From Planctomycetota bacterium (GTDB taxonomy: Bacteria; Patescibacteriota; Patescibacteriia; Patescibacteriales; UBA12465): a stretch of 34,988 nucleotides of DNA. Shown here piece after piece: positions 445 through 29,483 of this stretch. The position numbers were made by a program, and so were the translations under genes. The notes beneath the pieces were generated by a model. The model did no database searches. It saw only the letters and a list, made by a program, of their open reading frames with translations, and was not told where the DNA came from. The DNA lies in NCBI GenBank assembly GCA_025453315.1, contig JALOQQ010000001.1, forward strand, positions 1-34,988, given 5' to 3'. Each line of letters starts with the position of its first letter. Positions within the stretch are counted from its first letter, which is position 1.

Positions 445-479
445 CAAAAAAACAGACTTTCATCTGTATTTTGTATGGG

Positions 480-553
480 TGGGCGCACAAGGATTCGAAC
501 CCTGGACCCCTTCGGTGTAAACGAAGTGCTCTAACCAGCTGAGCTATGCGCCC
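480..553 (-). tRNA. tRNA-Val (anticodon TAC)
   Basis: The reverse complement reads GGGCGCATAGCTCAGCTGGTTAGAGCACTTCGTTTACACCGAAGGGGTCCAGGGTTCGAATCCTTGTGCGCCCA. Acceptor stem is GGGCGCA/TGCGCCC, anticodon stem CTTCG/CGAAG with loop TTTACAC, and a TTCGAAT T-loop. CCA is not encoded. Confidence 0.85.
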
Positions 554-586
554 TTATAGAAATTTGTAATTCTCTAATAAACTTTG

Positions 587-668
587 TGGGCGAAAGAGGA
601 CTTGAACCTCCACGGGTTTCCCCACAAGCACCTCAAGCTTGCGTGTATACCAATTTCACCATTCGCCC
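587..668 (-). tRNA. tRNA-Leu (anticodon GAG), long variable arm
   Basis: The reverse complement has acceptor GGGCGAA/TTCGCCC, a D-arm GTGAAATTGGTATACAC, and anticodon stem CAAGC/GCTTG with loop TTGAGGT. It also has an extra arm TGGGGAAACCCGT and a T-arm GGAGGTTCAAGTCCTCT. Confidence 0.8.
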
Positions 669-7728: not shown

Positions 7729-8196
7729 ATGATTAAAAAAAATAAAAAAATTCTTATTTCACTTTTTAGTTTATTTTTGTTTTTATTCTTGTGCTATCAG
7801 CCACTTCCGGCTTTAGCTCAGAATGCCCCGGGAACATTAATGGACTATATTGGTGGTAGTTGTCAGAAAAGCGGTGATTGCGATCTAAATGATTTTGTTA
7901 GAGTGGGTATTTGGGTTACCCGTTGGATTTTGGGAATTGTTGGCTCTCTTACTTTATTAATGTTTGTTTACGGCGGTTTTCAAATGATGACCTCAGCTGG
8001 TCAAAGCGAAAAAATTGCTAGCGGTAAAAAAATCATTCTCAACGCTATTATTGGTTTAATTATTGTTTTTTCAGCTTATATGTTAGTAGATTGGATATTA
8101 AAGAATGTTCAAGCTACGGACGAAAAGGGACAAATTAATGCCATAAAAGGTAAGCCAAGCTGGAATCAATTGCCTGAAGGTACTGGTCAGAAATAA
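7729..8196 (+). CDS. VirB2/TrbC-like two-helix pilin family protein, diverged paralog (P0)
   Basis: The signal peptide ends PALAQ. The core LLMFVYGGFQMMTSAGQSEKIASGKKIILNAIIGLIIVFSAY aligns with the hYGGhxWMTAxGNE...AhIGLhIhhSAY core of the six genes at 15827-18596. Confidence 0.7.
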   Translation: MIKKNKKILISLFSLFLFLFLCYQPLPALAQNAPGTLMDYIGGSCQKSGDCDLNDFVRVGIWVTRWILGIVGSLTLLMFVYGGFQMMTSAGQSEKIASGKKIILNAIIGLIIVFSAYMLVDWILKNVQATDEKGQINAIKGKPSWNQLPEGTGQK

Positions 8197-15826: not shown

Positions 15827-16210
15827 ATGAATAAAACTTTAAAACATTTAGTTTCTTTCGCCGTTATTGCTGTTTTTGCTTTTGGCATACTAGCTATTGC
15901 TCAACCAGCATCAGCTCAGTTAAACGTTGGTTTAAATGATTCTAACGTAACTGGTATCGGTCTTGGTAGTAAAGATCCTAAAGCAATTGCTAACTACGTT
16001 ATCAAATTGGCTTTAGGTTTCTTAGGTTTAATCGCCGTGGTTATTTGTTTGATCGGTGGTTTCAAATGGATGACTGCCGCTGGTAACGAAGAGCAGGTTG
16101 GTGAAGCTAAGAAATTGTTAGGTGCTGGTTTAATCGGTTTAGTAATTATCTTAACCGCTTACGGCTTGTCTACCTACGTTATTACTCAGTTAATGAGTGC
16201 TACCAGCTAG
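15827..16210 (+). CDS. VirB2/TrbC-like two-helix pilin family protein P1 (candidate major subunit)
   Basis: It has a strong SD agaggggtggtg, a signal peptide ending PASAQ and the core LIGGFKWMTAAGNEEQVGEAKKLLGAGLIGLVIILTAY. Its codon choice is more biased (ggt/gct/atc) than its neighbours. Confidence 0.8.
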   Translation: MNKTLKHLVSFAVIAVFAFGILAIAQPASAQLNVGLNDSNVTGIGLGSKDPKAIANYVIKLALGFLGLIAVVICLIGGFKWMTAAGNEEQVGEAKKLLGAGLIGLVIILTAYGLSTYVITQLMSATS

Positions 16211-16243
16211 TTCTGTTTTCTATTGTCGATTTTAGAAAAATTT

Positions 16244-16266
16244 GGTCCCTTCCTAATGAAGGGACC
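16244..16266 (+). terminator. GC-rich hairpin between P1 and P2 (possible partial terminator or mRNA-stabilising stem)
   Basis: A 9-bp stem ggtcccttc / gaagggacc with loop ctaat is followed by only a weak T tract (accgtcttt). Confidence 0.4.
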
Positions 16267-16314
16267 ACCGTCTTTGGCAGAAAAATATTTGTGCCAAGAA
16301 GGGTGGTCAATATT

Positions 16315-16731
16315 ATGAAAAAAATATTTAACTTTGTTAAAAAAACAAGCTTATTATTAGGAGTATTGTTTTTTTTGTTTTTGGGAATTAGTCCTGTGTT
16401 AGCTCAGAGTAAAGATGGTGATTATGGTTTAGCTGAAACGGTTGGTGAGGGACAAATTCAAGGGGCAATGAAAACAAAAAATGTTGATAGTGGAGCCTGG
16501 GGTTTTGTCACCTCAGAATTGGGACGTATTATTGGTTACGCTTTATCTTTTGTTGGTGTCATATTTTTAGTTTTAATGATATACGGCGGTATATTATGGA
16601 TGACTGCTCAGGGTAATGAAGAACAAACAAAAAAAGCCAAGACCTTGATTGTTGATGCAGTAATTGGTTTAGTTATAGTAATGTCTGCTTATGCTATTAC
16701 GGCTTTTGTTGGACAAGCTTTAACTGAGTAA
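16315..16731 (+). CDS. VirB2/TrbC-like two-helix pilin family protein P2
   Basis: The ATG at 16315 follows the SD gaagggtgg, whereas the ORF-track start at 16291 is GTG with no SD. The signal peptide ends PVLAQ and the core is MIYGGILWMTAQGNEEQTKKAKTLIVDAVIGLVIVMSAY. Confidence 0.8.
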   Translation: MKKIFNFVKKTSLLLGVLFFLFLGISPVLAQSKDGDYGLAETVGEGQIQGAMKTKNVDSGAWGFVTSELGRIIGYALSFVGVIFLVLMIYGGILWMTAQGNEEQTKKAKTLIVDAVIGLVIVMSAYAITAFVGQALTE

Positions 16732-16733
16732 TT

Positions 16734-17363
16734 ATGAAAAAAATATTATTAATAATTTTTATTGCGGTATTATTTTCCATTATTACGATAAATAGAGTAT
16801 CAGCTTTGGTTGTTAACTCTGATAAAGATCCTTTTAAAGTAGATTTGCAAAAAGGTTCGCCAATAAATAAAATAGATCCGCTTACCGGGCAAATAGAGCT
16901 TAATGCTGATAATTCTCTTAAAACCCCTTCCTCCAAAGATGTTGCTATACCAAAAGAGGGATATAATTTTTTACAAAACAGTGGATTAGAAAGTACGGCT
17001 GCTAAGTCAGGACATCTTGATAATTCAACCGGAGGTGATGGGGAAACGGACTTAATGTATACAATTGGGCATGTTATAAGGACAGTTATGTCTTGGTTGA
17101 GCGTTGGTTGTTTGCTTTTATTAATATATGGAGGAGTCCTTTGGATGACCGCTTCGGGAAATGATGATCAAATTAAAAAAGCCAAAGCTATTTTAAAAAA
17201 TACTATAATTGGAGTGGTAATTATTGTGTCAGCTTATGCCGTAACCACCTTTATTATGGATCAGTTGGTTAAGCCAGTAGAGAGTCCAACTTTAAAAACA
17301 ATACAAAGTAAAGGAGGAACAATACCTAATACTACTCCCAATATTATTATACCTTCTAAATAA
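16734..17363 (+). CDS. VirB2/TrbC-like two-helix pilin family protein P3 (long form)
   Basis: The core is LIYGGVLWMTASGNDDQIKKAKAILKNTIIGVVIIVSAY. It is preceded by about 110 aa of unique sequence and followed by a roughly 30-aa Thr/Pro/Ile-rich tail. The gene starts 2 nt after the P2 stop. Confidence 0.8.
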   Translation: MKKILLIIFIAVLFSIITINRVSALVVNSDKDPFKVDLQKGSPINKIDPLTGQIELNADNSLKTPSSKDVAIPKEGYNFLQNSGLESTAAKSGHLDNSTGGDGETDLMYTIGHVIRTVMSWLSVGCLLLLIYGGVLWMTASGNDDQIKKAKAILKNTIIGVVIIVSAYAVTTFIMDQLVKPVESPTLKTIQSKGGTIPNTTPNIIIPSK

Positions 17364-17374
17364 TGATTTAGTAT

Positions 17375-17764
17375 ATGAGAAAAGTTTTATTTACTATATT
17401 TATTTTTTTATTTTTCCCTTTATTTCTAGTGAATGCTGAGACACCCAATCTTTCCAACGCCTTTTCTAATAGTAAGACAGCTTCAGGACTTAATAATTTT
17501 AATAGCAAGGCCGGTCTAAGCCAAGTTGCCGAACCGGAATACATTGTTGCTAATTTTATTCAGAAATTATTATCTTTTCTTGGTGTTATATTTTTAATAT
17601 TAACGATATATGGTGGCATAACTTGGATGACGGCTCGTGGCAATAAAGACGCTGTCGAAAAAGCTAAAACAATAATGTCTCGGGCGATTATTGGTCTGGG
17701 TATTATTTTAGGAGCTTACGCCATTACAGCCTTTGTTTTTCAATCTTCGCTTTTCTTTAAATAA
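17375..17764 (+). CDS. VirB2/TrbC-like two-helix pilin family protein P4
   Basis: It has a signal peptide (FLVNAE) and the core TIYGGITWMTARGNKDAVEKAKTIMSRAIIGLGIILGAY. Confidence 0.8.
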   Translation: MRKVLFTIFIFLFFPLFLVNAETPNLSNAFSNSKTASGLNNFNSKAGLSQVAEPEYIVANFIQKLLSFLGVIFLILTIYGGITWMTARGNKDAVEKAKTIMSRAIIGLGIILGAYAITAFVFQSSLFFK

Positions 17765-17782
17765 AATTTCTTCATAACTATT

Positions 17783-18163
17783 ATGAAATTAGTTTTTAAA
17801 AAAATATTATTTTTATTGCTTTTAACCCTAATTCTAATCTCGCCGAGTTTGGTTTTTGCTCAATTTAGTTCGAGAGTAATGACATCTAAACTAGATGCTG
17901 TTGCTCAACAATCCGGTTATTCGGCGTCTACCGACGAGACTACTCTTGTAACTACTTTGGGTAGTATTGTTAATATTCTTTTAAGTTTACTTGGTATTAT
18001 ATTTGTTGCTTTAACTATTTATGCTGGTTTTAATTGGATGACCGCTCAAGGTAATGAGGAAAAAGTGAAAGAATCTAAAGCCACTTTAAGAACAGCGGTT
18101 ATTGGTTTGGTAATAACCCTATCTTCGTTTGCTATTTGGAAATTTATTGAGTCAAGATTATAA
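17783..18163 (+). CDS. VirB2/TrbC-like two-helix pilin family protein P5
   Basis: The signal peptide ends LVFAQ and the core is TIYAGFNWMTAQGNEEKVKESKATLRTAVIGLVITLSSF. Confidence 0.8.
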   Translation: MKLVFKKILFLLLLTLILISPSLVFAQFSSRVMTSKLDAVAQQSGYSASTDETTLVTTLGSIVNILLSLLGIIFVALTIYAGFNWMTAQGNEEKVKESKATLRTAVIGLVITLSSFAIWKFIESRL

Positions 18164-18173
18164 TTTTATTAAT

Positions 18174-18596
18174 ATGTTTAAAAAAATCATTTTTATTTTA
18201 TTGTCAGTTTTAATAATCGGCTATAGTTTTCCAGTTAGTGCTCAACTAGGATTATTAGAAAAAAAGAATACTGGTATGGAGGATAAGTTTGCCAAAGGTG
18301 CTGGTTTTAGCAAATCAACTAATGCCAGTTCAGCACCTTTAATGGTGGCTAATATTATAAAAGTCTTATTAAGTATTTTAGCTATTATTTTTGTTAGTTT
18401 AACTATTTATGCTGGTTTTACTTGGATGACTGCTCAAGGAAATGAAGAAAGAATAAAAGAAGCCAAGGGTACTTTAAAGACTGCAATTATTGGTTTAATA
18501 ATAGTGATGTGTGCTTATTCTATTACGGCTTTTGTCTTTACTAAGTTTGCTAATACTGGAAGTGCGACTAGTAACGGCAAACCACTTGGAAATTAA
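18174..18596 (+). CDS. VirB2/TrbC-like two-helix pilin family protein P6
   Basis: The ATG at 18174 gives MFKKIIFILLS... with the signal peptide ending PVSAQ; the track start at 18129 would overlap P5. The core is TIYAGFTWMTAQGNEERIKEAKGTLKTAIIGLIIVMCAY. Confidence 0.8.
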   Translation: MFKKIIFILLSVLIIGYSFPVSAQLGLLEKKNTGMEDKFAKGAGFSKSTNASSAPLMVANIIKVLLSILAIIFVSLTIYAGFTWMTAQGNEERIKEAKGTLKTAIIGLIIVMCAYSITAFVFTKFANTGSATSNGKPLGN

Positions 18597-19311: not shown

Positions 19312-19453
19312 CGTGTTATATTTATTAAAGTTATTAATTCTATTTATGTATTTTTTTGGAACCATTATAGTGCTATAATAGTTGTATATATTGAGTTTTA
19401 GAGATCGTTTATTGTAAGGATAATAGTATCATATTTAATAACTTTTGTCAATA

Positions 19454-20494
19454 ATGTCTAAGTACAAACTCTATACAAATTCTAAAAGAGCCTGGGACGG
19501 TATGCTAAAGGCTATGAAATTGGCCCAAAAATCTATTTATATAGAAATGTTTATTTTATTGGCCGACACTTCAGAAACCCATGATTTTTGGGGTGTTATT
19601 AAAGAAAAGGCTAAAAAGGGCGTAAAAATAGCCATAGTAGCTGACAGCTTTGGTAGCTATGCTCTAGATAAAGAGGCTGTAAATGAGGCCCGCGCACTAG
19701 GAGTGGAAATATTGTTTTTTAGTGATTGGTTGAGACGCACTCATCGTAAAATTATTATTGTTGATGAAAAAATTGCTTTTCTAGGCGGGGTTAATATTGA
19801 AAAGAAAACCATTAATTGGCGCGATTTACAAGTTCGTTTAGAATCAAAATATTTAGCCAAAGTTATTTTTAAAAGTTTTGCCTATACTTATATTATGTGT
19901 GGTGGCAAGGACCCTTTTATTTTAAAGCAACAGCAGAAAAAGTTTTTTCATAAAGTGCATTCCTGGCTCTTGGAACATTGGCCCAACTCAGGAGTTTATG
20001 CTTTAAATAATTATTATCGAGAAAAAATTATTGCCGCTCAAAAAAGAATAGTAATTATTACCCCTTATTTTACCCCTCCTCGTTGGTTAGTGGCCTTGCT
20101 TGATGATGCAATTCGTCGTGGTGTCAAAGTTGAGGTTATTATTCCGGAGAATACGGATGTTTCTATTATTAATAGAGTTAATTATGGTTATATTAGATTA
20201 CTGTCGCATTTGGGTATTGAATTTTTTCTCTTTAAAAAAATGAATCATGCCAAGGCTTTATTTATCGACAATAAAGAATTAATGATTGGTTCACCTAACA
20301 TTGATTTTCTTTCTTTTAATTTTAATTTGGAAGTAGGAGTCTTTATGGACGATAAAGAATTAATTCAAGAATTTTCTTTGTTAGTAGAAAAATGGCAAAG
20401 ACAATCTTGGCCCTTGGCTTATTTAAAGAATAAATTAATTTGGCTTGATTATGTTTTTGCTTTTTTTATCCGGTTGTTTTTAAGGATGTTGTAA
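19454..20494 (+). CDS. Phospholipase D superfamily protein with two HKD motifs (ClsB-like cardiolipin/phospholipid synthase)
   Basis: HKD motif 1 is HRKIIIVDEKIAFLGGVNI and HKD motif 2 is HAKALFIDNKELMIGSPNID. There is no N-terminal TM helix. The ATG at 19454 is preferred over the TTG at 19445. Confidence 0.8.
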   Translation: MSKYKLYTNSKRAWDGMLKAMKLAQKSIYIEMFILLADTSETHDFWGVIKEKAKKGVKIAIVADSFGSYALDKEAVNEARALGVEILFFSDWLRRTHRKIIIVDEKIAFLGGVNIEKKTINWRDLQVRLESKYLAKVIFKSFAYTYIMCGGKDPFILKQQQKKFFHKVHSWLLEHWPNSGVYALNNYYREKIIAAQKRIVIITPYFTPPRWLVALLDDAIRRGVKVEVIIPENTDVSIINRVNYGYIRLLSHLGIEFFLFKKMNHAKALFIDNKELMIGSPNIDFLSFNFNLEVGVFMDDKELIQEFSLLVEKWQRQSWPLAYLKNKLIWLDYVFAFFIRLFLRML

Positions 20495-20577: not shown

Positions 20578-21537
20578 ATGGCAAAAAAGAAAGAATTAGC
20601 TTCTATTAAGTTTTTTAAGGAAATCGATAAAAAATCAGTTGCCATTGCCGGTGGCAAAGGAGCGTCTTTAGGTGAAATGACTAAAGCCGGTTTAGCTGTG
20701 CCGCCAGGCTTTGTTATTCTTTCTCATTCTTTTGATCGTTTTTTAGAAGAAACCGATTTATTTCAAAGCATTGATTCCGAATTACATAAAACTAATTATA
20801 ATGATATTAATTCAGTCGATAAAACCTCAGCTATTATTAGAGAAATGATTCATGAAGCTAAAATGCCGATTGATTTAAGTAAAGAAATTGTAGCTAATTT
20901 TAAAAAGTTAAAGACTAAATATGTAGCAGTGCGTTCTTCGGCTACTGCTGAAGATTCTTCAGTAGCCTCTTGGGCCGGTGAACTAGAAACTTATTTGAAT
21001 ACCACTGACAAACGTTTATTGGAAAATGTAAAACGTTGTTGGTCTTCTTTGTTTACGCCGCGCGCTATTTTTTATCGTAAAGAAAAAGATTTATTAGAGA
21101 CTCATGTTTCCGTGGCCGTGGTTGTACAAAAAATGGTGGAGTCAGAAGTTTCTGGAATCGCTTTTACGGTTCATCCAGTTACTCAAGATAGAACACAAAT
21201 GATTATTGAAGCAGGATATGGTTTGGGTGAAGCTATTGTTTCCGGATCAATAACCCCAGACTCTTATGTTTTAGATAAAAGGGATATGTCTTTAATGGAT
21301 GTTAATGTTAGTAAGCAAGAAAAGAAAATTGTGCTTGATGTAAAAAATGGAGTAAAGTGGACTAAGATCGCCAAGAATGAACAAGAAAAGCAAAAATTAT
21401 CTAATAAACAAGTAGTGCAGTTGGCCGAATTATGTCTTAAAATCGAAAAGCATTATAAATTTCCTTGTGATATAGAATGGGCTTATGAAAAAAAGAAATT
21501 TTATATAACTCAGAGTCGTCCTATTACTACTCTCTAA
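20578..21537 (+). CDS. PEP/pyruvate-binding (PPDK_N) domain protein: stand-alone ATP-grasp domain of the PEP synthase family
   Basis: The pattern is AGGKGASLGEM..AGLAVPPGFV...VAVRSSATAEDS..ASWAGELETYLN...CWSSLFTPRAIFYR...VAVVVQKMV.SEVSGIAFT..P...GYGLGEAIVSG...PD.Y...CDIEWAY...FYITQSRPIT. The protein stops right after this domain. Confidence 0.8.
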   Translation: MAKKKELASIKFFKEIDKKSVAIAGGKGASLGEMTKAGLAVPPGFVILSHSFDRFLEETDLFQSIDSELHKTNYNDINSVDKTSAIIREMIHEAKMPIDLSKEIVANFKKLKTKYVAVRSSATAEDSSVASWAGELETYLNTTDKRLLENVKRCWSSLFTPRAIFYRKEKDLLETHVSVAVVVQKMVESEVSGIAFTVHPVTQDRTQMIIEAGYGLGEAIVSGSITPDSYVLDKRDMSLMDVNVSKQEKKIVLDVKNGVKWTKIAKNEQEKQKLSNKQVVQLAELCLKIEKHYKFPCDIEWAYEKKKFYITQSRPITTL

Positions 21538-24156: not shown

Positions 24157-24185
24157 TTGGCAGAGATTAGGTTTTATGGTATAAT
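24157..24185 (+). promoter_or_regulatory. Candidate promoter for the membrane protein / double-ATPase operon
   Basis: The -35 TTGGCA (24157-24162) is followed by a 17-nt spacer, then the extended -10 TGGTATAAT (24177-24185). Confidence 0.4.
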
Positions 24186-24232: not shown

Positions 24233-25198
24233 ATGCTTTCTTATCGCTCTATTTTAAAACAATCCTGGAACAACGTTTGGCGCTTTAAACATTTGTGGTT
24301 TTTTGGTTTGTTTGCCTTTGTTCTTTCTGCTTCTAATTTTGATTTTTTATCTAATCTTCTTAGTGCTGAAAAAAGAGCTGTGCTTTTTTCTAACATTCTT
24401 AATTTTGCTCAAACTGGAATTATTGGTAAATCTTTTTTTAAAGGTGTTCACTTGATTTTTCAAAGCGATCCAGTCGGCATGGTGACTTTTATTATTGTTG
24501 GTCTTATTGTTTTAGCCTTATTAATATTTATTCTTTGGTTATCAGTTTCTTCTCAGGCAGCCATTTTTAGTTCTACTTATTTAATTTATAAGAAGAAAAC
24601 TGATTTAGATATTAAAGCTGGCATTCGTTTCGGTTCAAAAATATTCTGGCCGGTATTGGGTGTTAATATTTTAGCTAAATTGGTGTTATTGTCTTCTTTT
24701 ATAATCTGCAGTATTCCTCTTTTTTTCCTTTCCGAGAAATCTTTTACTTTTGATTTGTTTTATACTTTGCTTTTCATCATTTTTGCAGTTATTAGTTTTG
24801 TGTTACTGATTGTTTCTAAATATGCTGTGGCTTATAAAGTTATTAAAAATACTAGTTTTATTTCTTCTTTAAGAAGTGCTTGGCATTTGTTTATTAAAAA
24901 CTGGTTAATTAGTGTCGAAATTTCCATTGTTTTTTTGGCGGTTTACTTAGTTAGTTTAGTTGCCGGTTGGTTATTGTCAGTTATTATTGCTTCACCATTT
25001 ATTGTTATATCTTTATTTACTGGTAGTTTTGCTTTTTGGGTAATTGCTTCAGCTGTTAATGTATTAGTAGTTATTGCTGTTGGCATGGTTCTTACTTCTT
25101 TCCAGTTTTCAGCTTGGACTCAATTATTTATTCAACTTATTGAAAATGGCGGACGCAGTAAAATAGAAAGAATAGTTGATTCAACTAAAAAAAGTTAA
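24233..25198 (+). CDS. Polytopic membrane protein, unknown function
   Basis: The 321-aa protein is almost entirely hydrophobic helices (about 7-8) and ends 43 nt before the ATPase gene on the same strand. Confidence 0.6.
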   Translation: MLSYRSILKQSWNNVWRFKHLWFFGLFAFVLSASNFDFLSNLLSAEKRAVLFSNILNFAQTGIIGKSFFKGVHLIFQSDPVGMVTFIIVGLIVLALLIFILWLSVSSQAAIFSSTYLIYKKKTDLDIKAGIRFGSKIFWPVLGVNILAKLVLLSSFIICSIPLFFLSEKSFTFDLFYTLLFIIFAVISFVLLIVSKYAVAYKVIKNTSFISSLRSAWHLFIKNWLISVEISIVFLAVYLVSLVAGWLLSVIIASPFIVISLFTGSFAFWVIASAVNVLVVIAVGMVLTSFQFSAWTQLFIQLIENGGRSKIERIVDSTKKS

Positions 25199-25241: not shown

Positions 25242-28200
25242 ATGACCGGATTCGCTTCTATAAACAGTTTACTCCATCCTAAAAAGAGCCGTGACGATGA
25301 CGAGACGATAGAGGGTAAATTTGCTAAAAAACAACAAGAAATAAAACTTAAGGACATAGAGAATTTAACAGAAGCCAAGGCAAATACCCTTGGCTTGTCG
25401 TATGTTAACCTTTATGGTTTTCCGGTTAGTCCGGATGCAATTATTTTAATTCCTGAAGAAGAAGCTCGTCAAAACAAAATTGTTTGTTTCTTTTATGATG
25501 GCAAAAATATTCGTATCGGTGCTGTAAATAATAATCAATACGTAATTGATAAAGCAGCTGAACTTGATGCCCAATATTTTACTAACAGTAAGATATACTT
25601 AATTTCTGAAGTTAGTCTTAATTGTGCTTTAGAAGTTTATAAAACTATCCCTAAGACTAAAAAATACGAAGGCGTAGAAATTAAGGCTGAAGATTTTGAA
25701 CGTCTTAAAAATGAAATAAAAGATTTTCGTACCCTCGCTAAAAAAATTAATGAAGTTAATATTAGTGAGATTGTTACTCTTATTTTAGCTACGGCTGCCA
25801 AAATTAGTTGTAGTGATATTCATATTGAGGCTGAAGAAAGGGGTATTGTTATCCGTTTACGTATTGATGGTATGTTGCAAGAAGCGGCTGTTATTGATCG
25901 CGACAAATGGAAAAAGGTTATTTCACGTATGAAAATCTTAGCTAAGGTAAAAATTAACGTCGAAAATAAACCACAAGATGGTCGCTATACTATTAATTTA
26001 GGTACTGATAAAATTGATGTCCGTTCCTCTTTCTTGCCCACGGCTTTTGGCGAAAGTGTGGTAATGCGTTTGTTACGTTCTAATGCTATTAGTTTATCTT
26101 TTGCTGATTTAGGATTATTGCCAGAATGTTTTAAAGTATTAGAAGCAGAAATTGCCAAGCCCAATGGTCTTATTCTAACAACTGGTCCAACTGGTTCTGG
26201 TAAAACTACTACTCTTTATAGTGTTTTAAATAAATTAAATACTCCGGATGTAAAAATAATTACTCTTGAAGATCCTATTGAATATCAATTAAAAGGTATT
26301 AGTCAGAGTCAAATTGATAGTAAAAAGGGTTATACTTTTGCTGATGGTTTACGTTCTATTTTGCGTCAAGATCCAGATATAGTTATGGTCGGCGAAATCC
26401 GTGATTTGGAAACAGCTGAAATTGCTGTTGAGGCGGCTTTAACTGGTCACTTGGTTCTCTCGACTCTTCATACTAACGATGCCGCTGGTGTTATTCCGCG
26501 TATGATCGATATGGGAATAAAGCCATTCTTTTTAGTGCCGGCTTTAAACGTGGTAGTTGGTCAGCGTTTAATTAGAAAACTTTGTCCTTTATGTAAGGTC
26601 GAACATCATTTAACTATCGAAGAAGAAGAATTAGTTAAAAAAATATTAGCTGTTATTTCACCAAAATCAGGAATTGAAATTCCTTCTGATCTTCCTGTTT
26701 TATATAAGGCTGGAGCTGGTTGTGAAAAATGTAATAATTTAGGTTATAAAGGCCGTATCGGTATTTACGAAGTGTTTACTATGGATGATCAAATAAAACA
26801 GTTGGCTATGGATAATGCTCCTTCTTTTAAAATACTCCAACAGGCTATTGAAAATGGCATGATCACCATGCTTCAAGATGGTGTTATTAAAGCCACTAAA
26901 GGAGTTACGAGCTTGGAAGAAATTTATGAAAATATTGGTAACTTTGACTATATTAATGAGCTTTATGATATTGTTGTTTCACAAACAGTTGGTCGTGGTA
27001 TTAAGATTTCAGTCGAAGAAATGAATAAGGCTAAAGAGCTAATTAAAAATAAAGTTGGTATTCAAGAGGCGGTGAAGAAAATGCCAACCAAAGATGTTTT
27101 AGTTATGATTATGGCTATGGCCATTGTTAGTAGAACCGGAGACTTGCATATTGAGCCAACTGAAACTGGTGTTAAATTTCGTTTTAGAATAGACGGTGTT
27201 CTTAATGACTTTTTAGATTTACCTAAATCTAATTATTTACCATTATTATCACAAGTAAAAATATTATCTGGTTTTGCCACTAACGTAAAAAAAGCTACTA
27301 TGGACGGACGTTTTAGTATGTTCTCTGACGGCAAAAAAATGGATTGTCGTGTTTCGATTATTTCTGGTGGTTATGGTGAAACAATTGTAATCCGTTTATT
27401 GACCAGCCAAGCCTCAACTTTGAATATGGAAAAATTAGGTATTACCTCTTTCTCTTTAAAAATGTTACGAGGTTCAATGAAAAAAACCAAAGGTGTCATT
27501 ATTACTACCGGTCCAACTGGTTCTGGTAAAACCACCACTTTATATAGTGTTTTAAATGAATTAAACACGCCTTCAGTGAAAATTATTACCGTTGAAGATC
27601 CGATTGAATATAATATGGCCGGTGTTATGCAGACTCAGATTGATGCTGAACATGGTTATACTTTTGCCGCCGCTATGCGCTCTCTTTTACGTCAAAATCC
27701 TAACGTCATGATGATCGGTGAAATCCGTGATGAAGAAACAGCCAAAATTTCAATTGAGGCTGCTATGACTGGCCACTTAGTTCTTTCTACTATCCATGCT
27801 AATAGTGCCGCTGGTGCTATTTCACGTTTTGTTGGTTTGGGCGTAGAAAGACAATCTTTAGCTAATTCTATGAATTGTAGTATTGGTCAGCGTTTGGTTA
27901 GAAGTCTTTGTCCTAATTGTAAACAACCAACAGAAATCTCTCCAGAAAATTTAGCCGAAGTAAAAAGATTACTCGATTTAATTAAAAATCCTGAAGTAAT
28001 AAAACCAACCGAATTAAAATTTTGGAAAGCTGTGGGCTGTGACCAATGTAATAATATTGGTTATAAAGGAAGACTGGGCTTGTATGAAGTTATTGAAATG
28101 TCACCAGATATTCAGAAATTAATTCAAACCGAGGGAGTTACTGATTATGATATTGAACAACAAGCTATTGCCAACGGCACAATTACCATGGTTCAAGACG

Positions 28201-28262
28201 GAGTTTTAAAAGCTTTAAATGGTGAAACGACGATTGAAGAAGTGTTTAGAGTTATTCAGTAA
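25242..28262 (+). CDS. Tandem-fused double PilB/GspE-family secretion ATPase (two complete ATPase units in one 1006-aa chain)
   Basis: Unit 1 has Walker A GPTGSGKTT (26184-26210), Asp box ITLEDPIEY, Walker B DPDIVMVGEIRD, His box TGHLVLSTLHTND and Zn site CPLCK...CEKCNNLGYKGR. Unit 2 has GPTGSGKTT (27510-27536), ITVEDPIEY, NPNVMMIGEIRD, TGHLVLSTIHANS and CPNCK...CDQCNNIGYKGR. There is a single GspE_N-like N-terminal domain. Confidence 0.9.
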   Translation: MTGFASINSLLHPKKSRDDDETIEGKFAKKQQEIKLKDIENLTEAKANTLGLSYVNLYGFPVSPDAIILIPEEEARQNKIVCFFYDGKNIRIGAVNNNQYVIDKAAELDAQYFTNSKIYLISEVSLNCALEVYKTIPKTKKYEGVEIKAEDFERLKNEIKDFRTLAKKINEVNISEIVTLILATAAKISCSDIHIEAEERGIVIRLRIDGMLQEAAVIDRDKWKKVISRMKILAKVKINVENKPQDGRYTINLGTDKIDVRSSFLPTAFGESVVMRLLRSNAISLSFADLGLLPECFKVLEAEIAKPNGLILTTGPTGSGKTTTLYSVLNKLNTPDVKIITLEDPIEYQLKGISQSQIDSKKGYTFADGLRSILRQDPDIVMVGEIRDLETAEIAVEAALTGHLVLSTLHTNDAAGVIPRMIDMGIKPFFLVPALNVVVGQRLIRKLCPLCKVEHHLTIEEEELVKKILAVISPKSGIEIPSDLPVLYKAGAGCEKCNNLGYKGRIGIYEVFTMDDQIKQLAMDNAPSFKILQQAIENGMITMLQDGVIKATKGVTSLEEIYENIGNFDYINELYDIVVSQTVGRGIKISVEEMNKAKELIKNKVGIQEAVKKMPTKDVLVMIMAMAIVSRTGDLHIEPTETGVKFRFRIDGVLNDFLDLPKSNYLPLLSQVKILSGFATNVKKATMDGRFSMFSDGKKMDCRVSIISGGYGETIVIRLLTSQASTLNMEKLGITSFSLKMLRGSMKKTKGVIITTGPTGSGKTTTLYSVLNELNTPSVKIITVEDPIEYNMAGVMQTQIDAEHGYTFAAAMRSLLRQNPNVMMIGEIRDEETAKISIEAAMTGHLVLSTIHANSAAGAISRFVGLGVERQSLANSMNCSIGQRLVRSLCPNCKQPTEISPENLAEVKRLLDLIKNPEVIKPTELKFWKAVGCDQCNNIGYKGRLGLYEVIEMSPDIQKLIQTEGVTDYDIEQQAIANGTITMVQDGVLKALNGETTIEEVFRVIQ

Positions 28263-28366: not shown

Positions 28367-28939
28367 ATGATTAATCTTAAGTTCATGGATAAGTTAAGGG
28401 GAGAATATAAAAAAAGCGAAATTCAAAGACGCCAGATTATTAGTTTATCTAATATAGTTATAAATACTTCTAAAAAAATTATTTTTGCCCTTCATCGTAA
28501 AGAAATAAAATTAGCGGAAGAGCAATTTGTGGAAGTGGAAAAAATATTAAAGAAATTAGAAAAAGAATTTGGTTTAAAACGTATTAATGAAGAAGGATCT
28601 TACTCGGCTGCGGTTGAAGAATATACTGAAGCCAAGATGTTTTACTTTTTTAATATTGGTAAAAAAATTGATAAAATTAAAGAAGCTAATTTGGAAAGCG
28701 ATGCTTACTTAGGTGGCATTTGTGATTTTACCGGTGAATTAGTTCGTCGTGCTACCAACGAAGCTTCTAATGGTAATTACGATGAAGTTAAAAGAATCAA
28801 GGAAATTATTAGAGAGGTGATGGATCAGTTAATTACTTATGATTTAGGTGGTTACTTACGTACTAAGTACGACCAGGCTTATAATAATTTACGTAAGATT
28901 GAGCAGATGGATTACGAAATAGCCCTACGTAAGCGCTAG
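28367..28939 (+). CDS. Translin/TRAX family protein
   Basis: YLGGICDFTGELVRRA matches the translin YLxGxxDxTGELxR motif. The C-terminal LRTKYDQAYNNLRKIEQMDYEIALRK matches the translin LRKRxDxLKYxVKKxExVVYDLSIR segment. AVEEYTEA provides an ExxE pair. Confidence 0.7.
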   Translation: MINLKFMDKLRGEYKKSEIQRRQIISLSNIVINTSKKIIFALHRKEIKLAEEQFVEVEKILKKLEKEFGLKRINEEGSYSAAVEEYTEAKMFYFFNIGKKIDKIKEANLESDAYLGGICDFTGELVRRATNEASNGNYDEVKRIKEIIREVMDQLITYDLGGYLRTKYDQAYNNLRKIEQMDYEIALRKR

Positions 28940-28970: not shown

Positions 28971-29483
28971 ATGAAAGTTGCCGTAGTTTCTGATATTCAT
29001 GACAATCTAGCTAACTTAGAAACTTTTCTTAAATATTTACACAAGACCGGTATTAACACGGTCTTGTGTTGTGGAGACCTTACTAATAGTGAAACTTTAT
29101 ATACTTTAGCTAAGGGGGTAAAGGGTGATATATTCTTGGTTCGTGGTAATATTGAAATATATAATGAAGAGGAAACCAAAAATTATCATAATGTACATTA
29201 TTTTGGACCTTTAGCTTATTTTCAAATAGAAAATAAAAACATTGCCCTTTGTCATGAGCCGTTTTGGATTGAGAAAATAAAGAAGCAATACCCTGATACT
29301 GATTTTATTTTTTATGGTCATACTCACAAACCTTGGAGCGAAACATCGGTTTTAAATAATAAAAATATTCTTATTGCTAATCCGGGAAATTTAGCCAATA
29401 CTTTCCATCCGGCCACCTTTGCCGTCTGGGATATTAATAATAATCAATTGGATTTAAAAAGACCACAGGATCTTGATTTATAA
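28971..29483 (+). CDS. YfcE/MJ0936-type metallophosphoesterase
   Basis: The metallophosphoesterase motifs are present: VVSDIHDN, CCGDL, RGNIE, CHEP and YGHTHKP. Confidence 0.85.
   Translation: MKVAVVSDIHDNLANLETFLKYLHKTGINTVLCCGDLTNSETLYTLAKGVKGDIFLVRGNIEIYNEEETKNYHNVHYFGPLAYFQIENKNIALCHEPFWIEKIKKQYPDTDFIFYGHTHKPWSETSVLNNKNILIANPGNLANTFHPATFAVWDINNNQLDLKRPQDLDL

What the first reader, a model, noticed from the sequence alone, without database searches (positions are those of the whole stretch)
25242..28262. Covalent tandem fusion of two complete PilB/GspE-type secretion ATPases in one 1006-aa protein
A single uninterrupted ORF encodes a GspE_N-like N-terminal domain followed by two full N2+CTD ATPase units. 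Each unit has an intact Walker A (GPTGSGKTT at 26184 and 27510, 442 codons apart), Asp box, Walker B, His box and tetracysteine Zn site. The junction is around 26937-27075, where the first unit ends with the usual ...GVTSLEEIYENIG and a linker of about 45 aa follows. PilB/GspE/PilT-family ATPases are normally proteins of about 350-570 aa that assemble as homohexamers. A fused dimer would build the ring from three chains, or form a stacked double ring. It would allow the two positions to specialise, for example extension-like versus retraction-like, or catalytic versus regulatory. By eye, in the 108 nt from just before Walker A to the Asp box I count roughly 18 mismatches between the two units, including a 23-nt identical run. 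So the duplication is diverged but clearly internal. I am not aware of a characterised fused double ATPase of this family.
Basis: partly seen in the sequence, partly recalled or inferred. Interest (0 to 1): 0.8.

Follow-up and report, generated by a model that had tools for sequence, protein, structure and literature searches.

The report
Fused double pilus-motor ATPase in Patescibacteria
One gene really does encode two complete, apparently active PilB/GspE-type pilus-motor ATPases joined head to tail; this uncharacterised design is conserved across hundreds of ultrasmall (Patescibacteria) genomes and would force the normally six-identical-subunit motor ring to be built from two alternating kinds of subunit.

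Summary
ORF 25242-28262 is uninterrupted (1006 aa). It contains a weak MshEN-like N-domain followed by two full N2D+CTD PilB/GspE units that are 44% identical (E 3e-129). Each unit has Walker A, Asp box, Walker B, His box and four Cys.

It is not an assembly artefact. I saw 216 distinct full-length double proteins from independent assemblies (Falkowbacteria, Parcubacteria/Paceibacterota, Moraniibacteriota), with a near-constant spacing of 429-448 residues between the two Walker A motifs. There are 13 divergent Patescibacteria clusters at 50% identity, plus one independent non-Patescibacteria case.

All catalytic motifs of both halves are essentially invariant, and both halves are extension-type rather than PilT-type. 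Forty-five positions are fixed differently in the two halves.

The gene is never next to pilC/M/N/O/T. In the window's lineage it follows a conserved DUF7544-like membrane protein. In Paceibacteria it sits between a DHH phosphoesterase and ruvB.

No solved structure and no paper found describes this architecture.

The most likely mechanism is a trimer forming an alternating (AB)3 pseudo-hexameric motor. A stacked double ring is the main rival. Neither the oligomeric state nor the function has been tested.

The parts
25242..28262 (+). Whole gene: 1006-aa tandem PilB/GspE-type ATPase (N1 domain, unit A, linker, unit B), including the stop codon
   Evidence: Single ORF. Two T2SSE stretches. Identical protein P0001 is on record at NCBI/JGI as 'GspE/PulE family protein'.
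25359..25646 (+). N1 domain (aa about 40-135), MshEN/GspE_N-like, present once only
   Evidence: MshEN PF05157 E 0.0026, below cut-off. The PilB model aligns from aa 30. AlphaFold gives an alpha/beta domain with pLDDT 80-89.
25647..25781 (+). Linker 1 (aa 136-180) between N1 and N2D-A; homologous to the inter-unit linker
   Evidence: The BLASTP alignment of the two halves starts at aa 131 against 573.
25782..26141 (+). Unit A N2D (aa 181-300) with conserved arginines R248, R261, R276
   Evidence: Invariant columns. Arg columns retained in the units of all 15 representative double proteins, except His at the R248 column in P0123_A and both P0127 units. Foldseek match to Geobacter PilB.
26142..26936 (+). 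Unit A CTD (aa 301-565): Walker A 26184-26210, Asp box aa 339-347, Walker B 26379-26405, His box aa 402-411, tetracysteine 26583-26732
   Evidence: Motif positions. Motifs invariant or nearly so in 120 relatives.
26937..27101 (+). Inter-unit linker (aa 566-620), predicted helical; the least conserved part together with N1
   Evidence: Helices 569-582, 591-602 and 604-612 with a low-pLDDT stretch at 578-585. Mean pairwise identity 0.59. Spacing between the two Walker A motifs is 429-448 aa in 216 proteins.
27102..27467 (+). Unit B N2D (aa 621-742) with R690, R703, R718; no N1 domain of its own
   Evidence: Invariant columns. 15 positions fixed differently from N2D-A, for example R229/E671 and W223/Y665.
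27468..28259 (+). Unit B CTD (aa 743-1006): Walker A 27510-27536, Asp box aa 781-789, Walker B 27705-27731, His box aa 844-853, tetracysteine 27909-28049
   Evidence: Motif positions. Motifs invariant or nearly so in 120 relatives.
24233..25198 (+). Conserved upstream partner candidate: 321-aa all-helical polytopic membrane protein, DUF7544-like, 43 nt before the ATPase start
   Evidence: Same gene directly upstream in L001-L004. 25 family clusters share the identical longest-contig length with a double-ATPase cluster. DUF7544 hit in 15 of 57 members. AlphaFold pLDDT 93 with no significant PDB match. Homologues also precede single PilB-like genes in L005, L006 and L090.
24157..24185 (+). Promoter-like site (11 of 12, extended -10 TG) upstream of the membrane-protein gene; possible start of a membrane protein-ATPase transcript
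   Evidence: This is a consensus match only, and the total count of such sites in the region is not above the shuffled expectation. No terminator-like site lies in the 43-nt gap between the two genes.
28367..28939 (+). Conserved downstream neighbour: Translin-family protein (190 aa)
   Evidence: PF01997 E 7e-20. Same position in L001-L004, 53-59% identical.
28971..29483 (+). Conserved downstream neighbour: YfcE-family metallophosphoesterase (170 aa)
   Evidence: Metallophos_2 E 1.6e-25. TIGR00040 yfcE above cut-off. Same position in L001-L004.

Best explanation
The gene encodes a natural, conserved 'double PilB'. It consists of one MshEN-like N1 domain followed by two complete extension-type (PilB/GspE) ATPase units, A and B. 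The two units arose by an ancient duplication-fusion in Patescibacteria and have since been kept intact.

Shown: the fusion is real, it is widespread, and both nucleotide sites carry every catalytic residue under strong purifying selection. The two units have also become non-equivalent, with 45 positions fixed differently, a third of them in the N2 domains.

Inferred: three chains assemble into a planar pseudo-hexameric ring of alternating units, (AB)3. Both kinds of site hydrolyse ATP, and only three N1 anchor domains are present. In current models the platform protein GspF/PilC is itself an internally duplicated protein that trimerises into a ring of alternating Cyto1 and Cyto2 domains, each contacting one ATPase N2D. 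An (AB)3 motor would mirror that arrangement 3:3, which would let N2D-A and N2D-B each specialise for one Cyto domain. Such a ring can have at most C3 symmetry, because A always sits opposite B.

Inferred, weaker: the motor drives a type IV filament-like machine (pilus, competence or secretion) whose other parts are encoded elsewhere. In the window's lineage it possibly acts together with the conserved upstream membrane protein.
For: Real and duplicated. Conserved in 216 distinct proteins with near-constant unit spacing. Named sources are Falkowbacteria, Parcubacteria GW2011_GWA2_47_8 (KKU82539.1), Paceibacterota and Moraniibacteriota.

Both sites conserved: Walker A, Asp box, Walker B, His box and Cys are invariant or nearly so in 120 relatives, and retained in 13 divergent Patescibacteria clusters.

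Both halves extension-type. Fold of each unit matches Geobacter PilB, target-normalised TM-score 0.84-0.88.

Non-equivalence: 45 positions conserved within each half but different between them. The N2Ds share only about 25-42% identity between A and B, while each N2D is 72-75% conserved among orthologues.

Ancient single origin of the main family: B units are monophyletic in 59 of 100 bootstraps, and the locus is shared across lineages.

Platform symmetry argument: the PulF3:PulE6 model, in which Cyto1 and Cyto2 each bind one N2D (PMC10790770). Precedent for two different extension ATPases serving one pilus: PilB plus TfpB (PMC8213720).
Against: No oligomer could be modelled. The monomer model has pTM 0.46, so the relative position of the two units is undefined.

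Tandem ATPase proteins known from other families (KaiC, p97, ClpB; from my own knowledge) form stacked rings, not planar ones. The absence of an N1 domain on unit B fits a membrane-distal second ring equally well.

No pilC, pilM/N/O, pilT or prepilin gene is adjacent in the window or in 11 related loci. A pilus role is therefore inferred from homology only.

The conserved upstream membrane protein is not PilC-like.

NJ support for a single origin is only moderate. The A unit of the window's subfamily groups with single-unit PilBs rather than with the other A units.
Confidence: 0.5

Rival explanations
1. Stacked double ring. Six chains assemble so that the six A units form a membrane-proximal ring (with six N1 anchors) and the six B units form a second ring beneath it, as in KaiC, p97/NSF or ClpB. 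Ring B would act as a booster, a regulator or a docking surface.
For: Unit B lacks its own N1 anchor domain. The 55-aa helical linker could reach a ring below. More sites are conserved only in A than only in B in the C-terminal subdomain, 15 against 1. B also evolves somewhat faster. Every tandem ring ATPase I know of stacks its domains (my own knowledge, not tested here).
Against: In this superfamily each N2D packs on the neighbouring subunit's CTD (McCallum et al. PilB structures, from my own knowledge), so a covalently linked neighbour in the same ring is a natural geometry. N2D-B is as conserved as N2D-A and keeps all three arginines. No structural test was possible.
Confidence: 0.3
2. A motor for something other than a canonical type IV pilus. 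The double ATPase would work with the conserved DUF7544-like membrane protein (ABY1/Falkowbacteria lineage), or alongside DHH/NrnA-like, translin, YfcE and Ruv proteins. That would be a PilC-independent module, for example for nucleic-acid uptake or processing or some other envelope transport. This rival concerns function and is compatible with either ring geometry.
For: The gene is never adjacent to pil genes. Conserved micro-synteny is membrane protein-ATPase-translin-YfcE in the window and L001-L004. In Paceibacteria and Moraniibacteria it is TsaE / DHH-ATPase-RuvB-bPH-YebC-RuvC. The membrane-protein family co-locates with double ATPases in at least 25 clusters. It also precedes single PilB-like genes. 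It is not PilC-like.
Against: Patescibacterial genomes are tiny and gene-dense, so conserved adjacency to housekeeping genes may carry no functional meaning. The partner differs between lineages (membrane protein in one, DHH in the other). Orphan PilB paralogues such as TfpB still serve ordinary pili (PMC8213720). Prepilin-type (N_methyl) genes lie within a few kb in L001/L002.
Confidence: 0.2
3. One half is a degenerate, non-catalytic regulatory pseudo-ATPase, or the protein is a PilB-PilT (extension plus retraction) fusion.
For: Unit B is slightly less conserved. Some B units have GPTSAGKT or GPTSSGKT in Walker A. In the independent non-Patescibacteria double protein P0134, unit A has lost the Walker A lysine (GPTGSGTTT), so degeneration of one half can happen.
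Against: In the window protein and all 13 Patescibacteria clusters, both units keep the P-loop lysine, the Walker B Glu/Asp and the His box; the Asp-box acidic pair is kept in most but reads EN in five clusters. The zinc cysteines are kept in all but one unit (P0130_B). Both halves score about 2.5-fold higher for PilB/GspE than for PilT, and both have the tetracysteine subdomain.
Confidence: 0.05
4. Assembly or annotation artefact: two adjacent pilB genes merged by a missed stop or frameshift, or a chimeric contig.
For: None found. Adjacent separate PilB/PilT genes are common elsewhere. Read mapping could not be done.
Against: 216 distinct intact double ORFs from four independent data sources. 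The junction is conserved in frame, and unit spacing is 429-448 aa. Composition is uniform across the gene.
Confidence: 0.01

Closest known systems
PilB, the type IVa pilus extension ATPase (e.g. Geobacter metallireducens 5TSG/5TSH, Myxococcus xanthus 3JC8)
   Same: Best sequence and fold match for each unit: PDB E 8e-110, target-normalised TM-score 0.84-0.88, 44-47% identity. Same N1-N2D-CTD order. Same Walker A, Asp box, Walker B, His box and tetracysteine.
   Different: PilB has one ATPase unit per chain (about 560-590 aa) and forms homohexamers; pilB is usually encoded with pilC, pilD or pilT. Here there are two units per chain, one N1 domain per two units, and no adjacent pil genes. Each half alone is below the NCBIfam PilB cut-off (463 and 402 bits against 676).
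GspE/EpsE/PulE, the type II secretion ATPase
   Same: Highest NCBIfam score (TIGR02533). Same motifs and zinc site.
   Different: GspE is single-unit, and its N1 domain binds GspL in a diderm secretion machine. Patescibacteria appear to lack an outer membrane and the PilQ secretin (PMC6744442). Each half alone is below the GspE cut-off (489 and 420 bits against 630).
Thermus thermophilus PilF (6F8L, 913 aa) and other long PilBs
   Same: Also much longer than a standard PilB, with PilB-type motifs.
   Different: The extra length there is repeated N-terminal GSPII/MshEN domains in front of a single ATPase unit. Here the ATPase unit itself is duplicated.
PilB plus TfpB in Acinetobacter baylyi (PMC8213720)
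   Same: Two diverged extension-type ATPases are both needed for one pilus. TfpB, like this gene, lies away from pilC.
   Different: They are separate polypeptides. Whether they share a ring is not known. Here the two paralogous units are covalently joined at 1:1 stoichiometry.
Platform protein GspF/PilC (trimer of an internally duplicated protein) and TadB/TadC (PMC10790770)
   Same: The same architectural logic on the partner side: a ring of six domains built from three chains of two diverged repeats, Cyto1 and Cyto2, each modelled to bind one ATPase N2D.
   Different: A different protein family, a membrane platform rather than an ATPase. The match in symmetry is my inference and has not been tested.
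Tandem ring ATPases KaiC, p97/NSF, ClpB/Hsp104 (my own knowledge)
   Same: Two P-loop ATPase modules in one chain, both often active.
   Different: They belong to different superfamilies (RecA-like KaiC, AAA+), and their two modules form two stacked rings. Whether the double PilB stacks or alternates is unknown.
P0134-type double ATPase from a non-Patescibacteria genome
   Same: Two T2SSE units in one 1047-aa chain.
   Different: Independent origin: its A and B units are each other's closest relatives, bootstrap 99. It carries an N-terminal T2SSF-like region. Unit A has lost the Walker A lysine.

Membership tests
PilT/VirB11-like secretion ATPase superfamily, GspE/PilB branch (Pfam T2SSE PF00437) | Significant T2SSE domain match above the gathering score | tested here: met
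   764 bits against a cut-off of 24.9, in two stretches.
PilT/VirB11-like secretion ATPase superfamily, GspE/PilB branch (Pfam T2SSE PF00437) | Walker A, Asp box, Walker B and His box in each ATPase unit | tested here: met
   All four motifs are present in both units. They are invariant or nearly so in 120 relatives.
Extension-type ATPases (PilB/GspE as opposed to PilT) | Tetracysteine zinc-binding subdomain in the CTD, and higher scores for PilB/GspE models than for the PilT model | tested here: met
   CxxC pairs at 448/494 and 890/933. Unit A scores GspE 489, PilB 463, PilT 186 bits. Unit B scores 420, 402 and 160 bits.
Extension-type ATPases (PilB/GspE as opposed to PilT) | N-terminal N1 domain (T2SSE_N / MshEN) | tested here: inconclusive
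   MshEN E 0.0026, 18.1 bits against a cut-off of 23.1. The PilB model aligns from aa 30. The domain is present once, not once per unit.
NCBIfam equivalogs TIGR02538 (type IV-A PilB) and TIGR02533 (T2SS GspE) | One ATPase unit reaching the curated equivalog cut-off | tested here: not met
   The whole protein passes only because two units add up (871 and 900 bits). Each half alone is below cut-off: 463 and 402 against 676, and 489 and 420 against 630. It is therefore a family member but not an equivalog of PilB or GspE.
Type IV pilus / type II secretion machinery component | Encoded with platform (pilC/gspF), alignment (pilM/N/O), prepilin peptidase or pilin genes | tested here: not met
   None of these genes is in the 35-kb window, nor within 8-10 kb in L001-L004, L007, L085-L087, L089 or L091. 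The exception is N_methyl proteins in L001/L002. Presence elsewhere in the genome was not testable.
Type IV pilus / type II secretion machinery component | Forms a hexameric ring that engages the platform protein | not testable with these tools
   Only a monomer could be predicted (pTM 0.46). No multimer modelling or biochemistry was available.
Stacked tandem ring ATPases (KaiC / p97 type architecture) | Two ATPase modules of one chain forming two coaxial rings | not testable with these tools
   No coordinates or multimer prediction were available. This was considered only as an architectural analogy.

The most novel reading that the evidence does not exclude
The double ATPase is the motor of a Patescibacteria-specific, PilC-independent two-gene module, made of the DUF7544-like polytopic membrane protein plus a PilB-like ATPase that is single or double. 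In this reading an obligatorily asymmetric (AB)3 ring drives a so far undescribed envelope process, for example nucleic-acid uptake feeding the adjacent translin, YfcE and DHH/NrnA-like phosphoesterases. That would be a new kind of machine built from a pilus motor.
Probability: 0.15. Interest if true: 0.85.

Novelty: new variant of a known kind. Interest (0 to 1): 0.62.

Why it matters
PilB/GspE motors are thought to work as rings of six identical subunits. There is a long debate over whether they cycle with two-fold (C2) or three-fold symmetry, and over how they couple to a dimeric or trimeric platform protein.

A natural, strongly conserved covalent A-B dimer offers two things. It is a built-in 'linked-subunit' construct of the kind engineers made for ClpX, so sites can be mutated in alternating positions. 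If the ring is planar, it is also a motor that cannot be C2-symmetric, because A always faces B. Its existence would then constrain the mechanism.

The protein also marks an unstudied, widespread component of Patescibacteria, whose pili are central to their episymbiotic lifestyle. In addition, it points to a conserved membrane partner of unknown function.

Tried and rejected
1. Artefact hypothesis. Rejected by family-wide conservation.

2. Recent internal duplication or gene conversion in the window gene. Third-base identity at identical residues is about 0.6 along the whole alignment, with no local peak at the 23-nt run. There is therefore no conversion signal, and the run reflects identical residues plus AT-biased codons.

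3. Recurrent independent fusions. P0127 and P0128 have A and B units as sisters (bootstrap 99-100). However, both lie at the same TsaE/PolA...RuvB locus as the main family. I read them as intragenic homogenisation or re-duplication, not as new fusions. Only P0134 is clearly independent.

4. Testing co-occurrence with a separate single pilB in the same genome by matching contig lengths. This gave no match and is inconclusive, because the hit list was crowded with double proteins.

It returned mostly ordinary PilB or PilB-PilT loci and only one double protein (L007, Moraniibacteriota). It is therefore not a census.

6. PilC-like nature of the upstream membrane protein. Rejected: the hits are DUF7544 and weak choline-transporter-like matches, and Foldseek finds nothing at E <= 1e-3.

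7. Prepilin motifs in the window. None found.

8. Model coordinates are not exposed, so contacts between the units in the AlphaFold model could not be inspected.

9. Seven literature searches found no description of tandem or fused PilB/GspE. The library lacks most subscription-journal papers, so absence is not proof.


Full report
OBSERVATION

The ORF at 25242-28262 (+) is one uninterrupted frame of 1006 codons. Pfam T2SSE matches twice (E 1.9e-230), as do the NCBIfam GspE and PilB models. Residues 131-565 align to 573-1005 at 44% identity over 436 aa, E 3e-129.

Each half has all the expected motifs:
- Walker A GPTGSGKTT at aa 315 and 757 (nt 26184 and 27510, 442 codons apart)
- Asp box at 339 and 781
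- Walker B at 380 and 822
- His box at 402 and 844
- Two CxxC pairs at 448/494 and 890/933

The 108 nt around Walker A have 20 mismatches and a 23-nt identical run.

The repeated unit starts in the linker that precedes the N2 domain, so unit B has no N1 domain. The single N1 domain is only a sub-threshold MshEN match. It is nonetheless modelled as a compact alpha/beta domain.

NOT AN ARTEFACT, BUT A FAMILY

The exact protein is on record at NCBI and JGI as a generic 'GspE/PulE family protein'. A search of 5.8 billion proteins returned at least 120 clusters of 1003-1012 aa at 65-70% identity and full coverage. A second search added many more.

In all, I saw 216 distinct proteins with two Walker A motifs. 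The spacing between the motifs is 429-448 residues, with a mode of 442.

An exhaustive HMMER scan of 1.84 billion cluster representatives found 14 clusters (at 50% identity) with the double architecture. They are 978-1047 aa long and 38-64% identical to the query. All further hits were single-unit proteins.

Named sources are Falkowbacteria, Parcubacteria group GW2011_GWA2_47_8 (KKU82539.1), Paceibacterota, and a Moraniibacteriota genome in GTDB. The NCBI label 'Planctomycetes bacterium' on this contig is therefore probably a binning error.

BOTH HALVES LOOK ACTIVE AND ARE BOTH EXTENSION-TYPE

In 120 relatives every catalytic motif and all eight cysteines of both halves are invariant or nearly so.

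In the 13 divergent Patescibacteria clusters every unit keeps the P-loop lysine, the Walker B acidic residues and the His box. The Asp-box acidic pair reads EN instead of ED in five clusters, and the R248 column is His in P0123_A and in both units of P0127. The zinc site is kept in all but one unit (P0130_B).

Scored separately, unit A gives GspE 489, PilB 463 and PilT 186 bits. Unit B gives 420, 402 and 160 bits. The protein is therefore not a PilB-PilT fusion and not a catalytic-plus-dead pair.

The AlphaFold model has mean pLDDT 77. Each unit matches Geobacter PilB at a target-normalised TM-score of 0.84-0.88. No solved chain contains two units. The model's pTM of 0.46 means the mutual arrangement of the units is undefined.

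THE TWO UNITS ARE NOT EQUIVALENT

Forty-five aligned positions are at least 90% conserved within A orthologues and within B orthologues but carry different residues. They split as 15 in the N2D, 15 in the CTD core, 10 in the C-terminal subdomain and 5 in the linker. Examples are R229/E671 and W223/Y665.

The N2 domains are the most diverged parts between A and B, at about 25-42% identity. Each is nevertheless 72-75% conserved among orthologues. Unit B evolves slightly faster.

HISTORY

Unit A is closer to single-unit PilBs (up to 56%) than to unit B.

In NJ trees of 165 units, the B units of the 12 main double proteins form a clade in 59 of 100 bootstraps. This fits one ancient duplication-fusion, with moderate support.

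Three double proteins have A and B as sisters (bootstrap 99-100):
- P0127 (A and B 56% identical) and P0128 (74% identical) lie at the same locus as the main family. I interpret them as intragenic homogenisation or re-duplication.
- P0134 is an independent event. It comes from a non-Patescibacteria context, has a T2SSF-like N-terminus, and its unit A has lost the Walker A lysine.

CONTEXT

The 35-kb window holds no pilC, pilM/N/O, pilT, prepilin peptidase or prepilin-type gene.

In the window and its close relatives (L001-L004) the order is:
- polytopic membrane protein (321-338 aa), followed by a gap of 3-43 nt
- the double ATPase
- a translin-family protein
- a YfcE phosphodiesterase

UvrA, a cardiolipin-synthase-like PLD protein and IMPase lie nearby.

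The membrane protein has these properties:
- It belongs to a Patescibacteria-only family of 'hypothetical' proteins. Twenty-five of its clusters share their longest contig with a double-ATPase cluster.
- It is DUF7544-like (15 of 57 members).
- It is confidently modelled as all-helical (pLDDT 93), with no significant PDB match. It is not PilC-like.
- Homologues also sit directly upstream of single-unit PilB-like genes in L005, L006 and L090.

In Paceibacteria and Moraniibacteria the conserved order is different: PolA and TsaE on the opposite strand, then a DHH/NrnA-like protein, the double ATPase, RuvB, a bPH protein, YebC and RuvC.

These links to nucleic-acid enzymes are suggestive. In tiny, gene-dense genomes they may equally be passive synteny.

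MECHANISM

Shown: a real, conserved fusion; two intact extension-type active sites; fixed differences between the units.

Inferred, and favoured at about 0.5: three chains form a planar (AB)3 ring. This mirrors the published PulF3:PulE6 model, in which the internally duplicated platform protein presents alternating Cyto1 and Cyto2 domains, each to one ATPase N2D (PMC10790770). The N2D divergence would then be specialisation for the two Cyto domains. Such a ring cannot be C2-symmetric, because A faces B.

Main rival, at about 0.3: a stacked A6/B6 double ring, as in KaiC or p97. The lack of an N1 domain on unit B fits this equally well.

Function as a type IV filament motor is inferred from homology only. 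Orphan extension ATPases can serve ordinary pili, as TfpB does (PMC8213720). A PilC-independent module with the upstream membrane protein remains possible.

KNOWN OR NEW

Sequences of this family have been public since at least the 2015 Parcubacteria genomes, but only under generic names.

Seven full-text searches found no description of a tandem or fused PilB/GspE. I also read papers on PilB regulation, Patescibacteria pili and Patescibacteria protein families, and none describes one.

I rate it a new variant of a known kind. Interest is moderately high, because it offers a natural linked-subunit motor and bears on the symmetry question. It is tempered by the untested oligomeric state and function.

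Noticed in passing
window 24233-25198 (+); also L001 8974-9990, L003 9017-9997, L090 8677-9984, L006 349-1557, L005 6897-7901: A Patescibacteria-specific, fast-evolving polytopic membrane protein (DUF7544-like, AlphaFold pLDDT 93, no PDB match) sits directly upstream of PilB-like ATPase genes, both double and single. This looks like a conserved two-gene module of unknown function.
   Followed up: yes
window 15827-18596 (+) and 7729-8196 (+): Six consecutive small paralogous ORFs (126-209 aa), each with a signal-like N-terminus, two hydrophobic helices and a shared W(M)TA.GNE motif. A seventh copy at 7729-8196 hits Pfam T4SS_pilin (PF18895). Together they form a tandem array of VirB2/TrbC-like pilin genes.
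   Followed up: partly
whole window (contig of 34988 bp; protein P0001/P0399 records): NCBI labels the source 'Planctomycetes bacterium' (locus tags MUF50_). However, the closest relatives of both the ATPase and the membrane protein, the shared synteny, the 26-37% GC (mostly about 30%) and the T4SS_pilin array all point to Patescibacteria (Falkowbacteria/ABY1-like). This is a probable mis-binning.
   Followed up: partly
L088 8001-11144 (protein P0134): An independent double T2SSE ATPase (1047 aa) in a non-Patescibacteria context (ECF sigma factor, sulfatase, BatA/VWA). It has an N-terminal T2SSF (platform-like) region. Its unit A has lost the Walker A lysine (GPTGSGTTT). This looks like a platform-fragment-ATPase-ATPase fusion with one degenerate site.
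   Followed up: partly
L086 10001-12985 (P0127) and L091 3226-6213 (P0128): In these two orthologues, at the conserved TsaE/PolA...RuvB locus, the two halves are 56% and 74% identical and are each other's closest relatives. This suggests intragenic gene conversion or loss followed by re-duplication (concerted evolution of the halves).
   Followed up: partly
L085, L087, L089, L007, L086, L091: Conserved Paceibacteria/Moraniibacteria neighbourhood: PolA and TsaE (opposite strand), a DHH-family (weakly NrnA-like) protein of about 380 aa, the double ATPase, RuvB, a bPH_2 protein, YebC and RuvC. The ATPase is embedded among DNA recombination and repair genes.
   Followed up: partly
window 28367-28939 (+): A bacterial Translin-family protein (PF01997, E 7e-20) is conserved immediately downstream of the double ATPase in the window and L001-L004. 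Translin is best known from eukaryotes and archaea. NCBIfam only matches mis-named 'HAD superfamily' archaeal models, all below cut-off.
   Followed up: no
window 19445-20494 (+): A PLD-type, cardiolipin-synthase-like gene stays near the double ATPase in the window, L001 and L003. Cardiolipin is reported to stimulate GspE/PilB ATPase activity (abstract of PMC10790770). The association may be a coincidence.
   Followed up: no
window 20578-21537 (+): A stand-alone 319-aa ORF consists only of the PPDK_N (pyruvate phosphate dikinase ATP-binding) domain, without the other dikinase domains.
   Followed up: no
window 478-668 (-): Two adjacent tRNA genes, tRNA-Val(TAC) and tRNA-Leu(GAG). These are the only Rfam or ARAGORN hits in the window.
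   Followed up: yes
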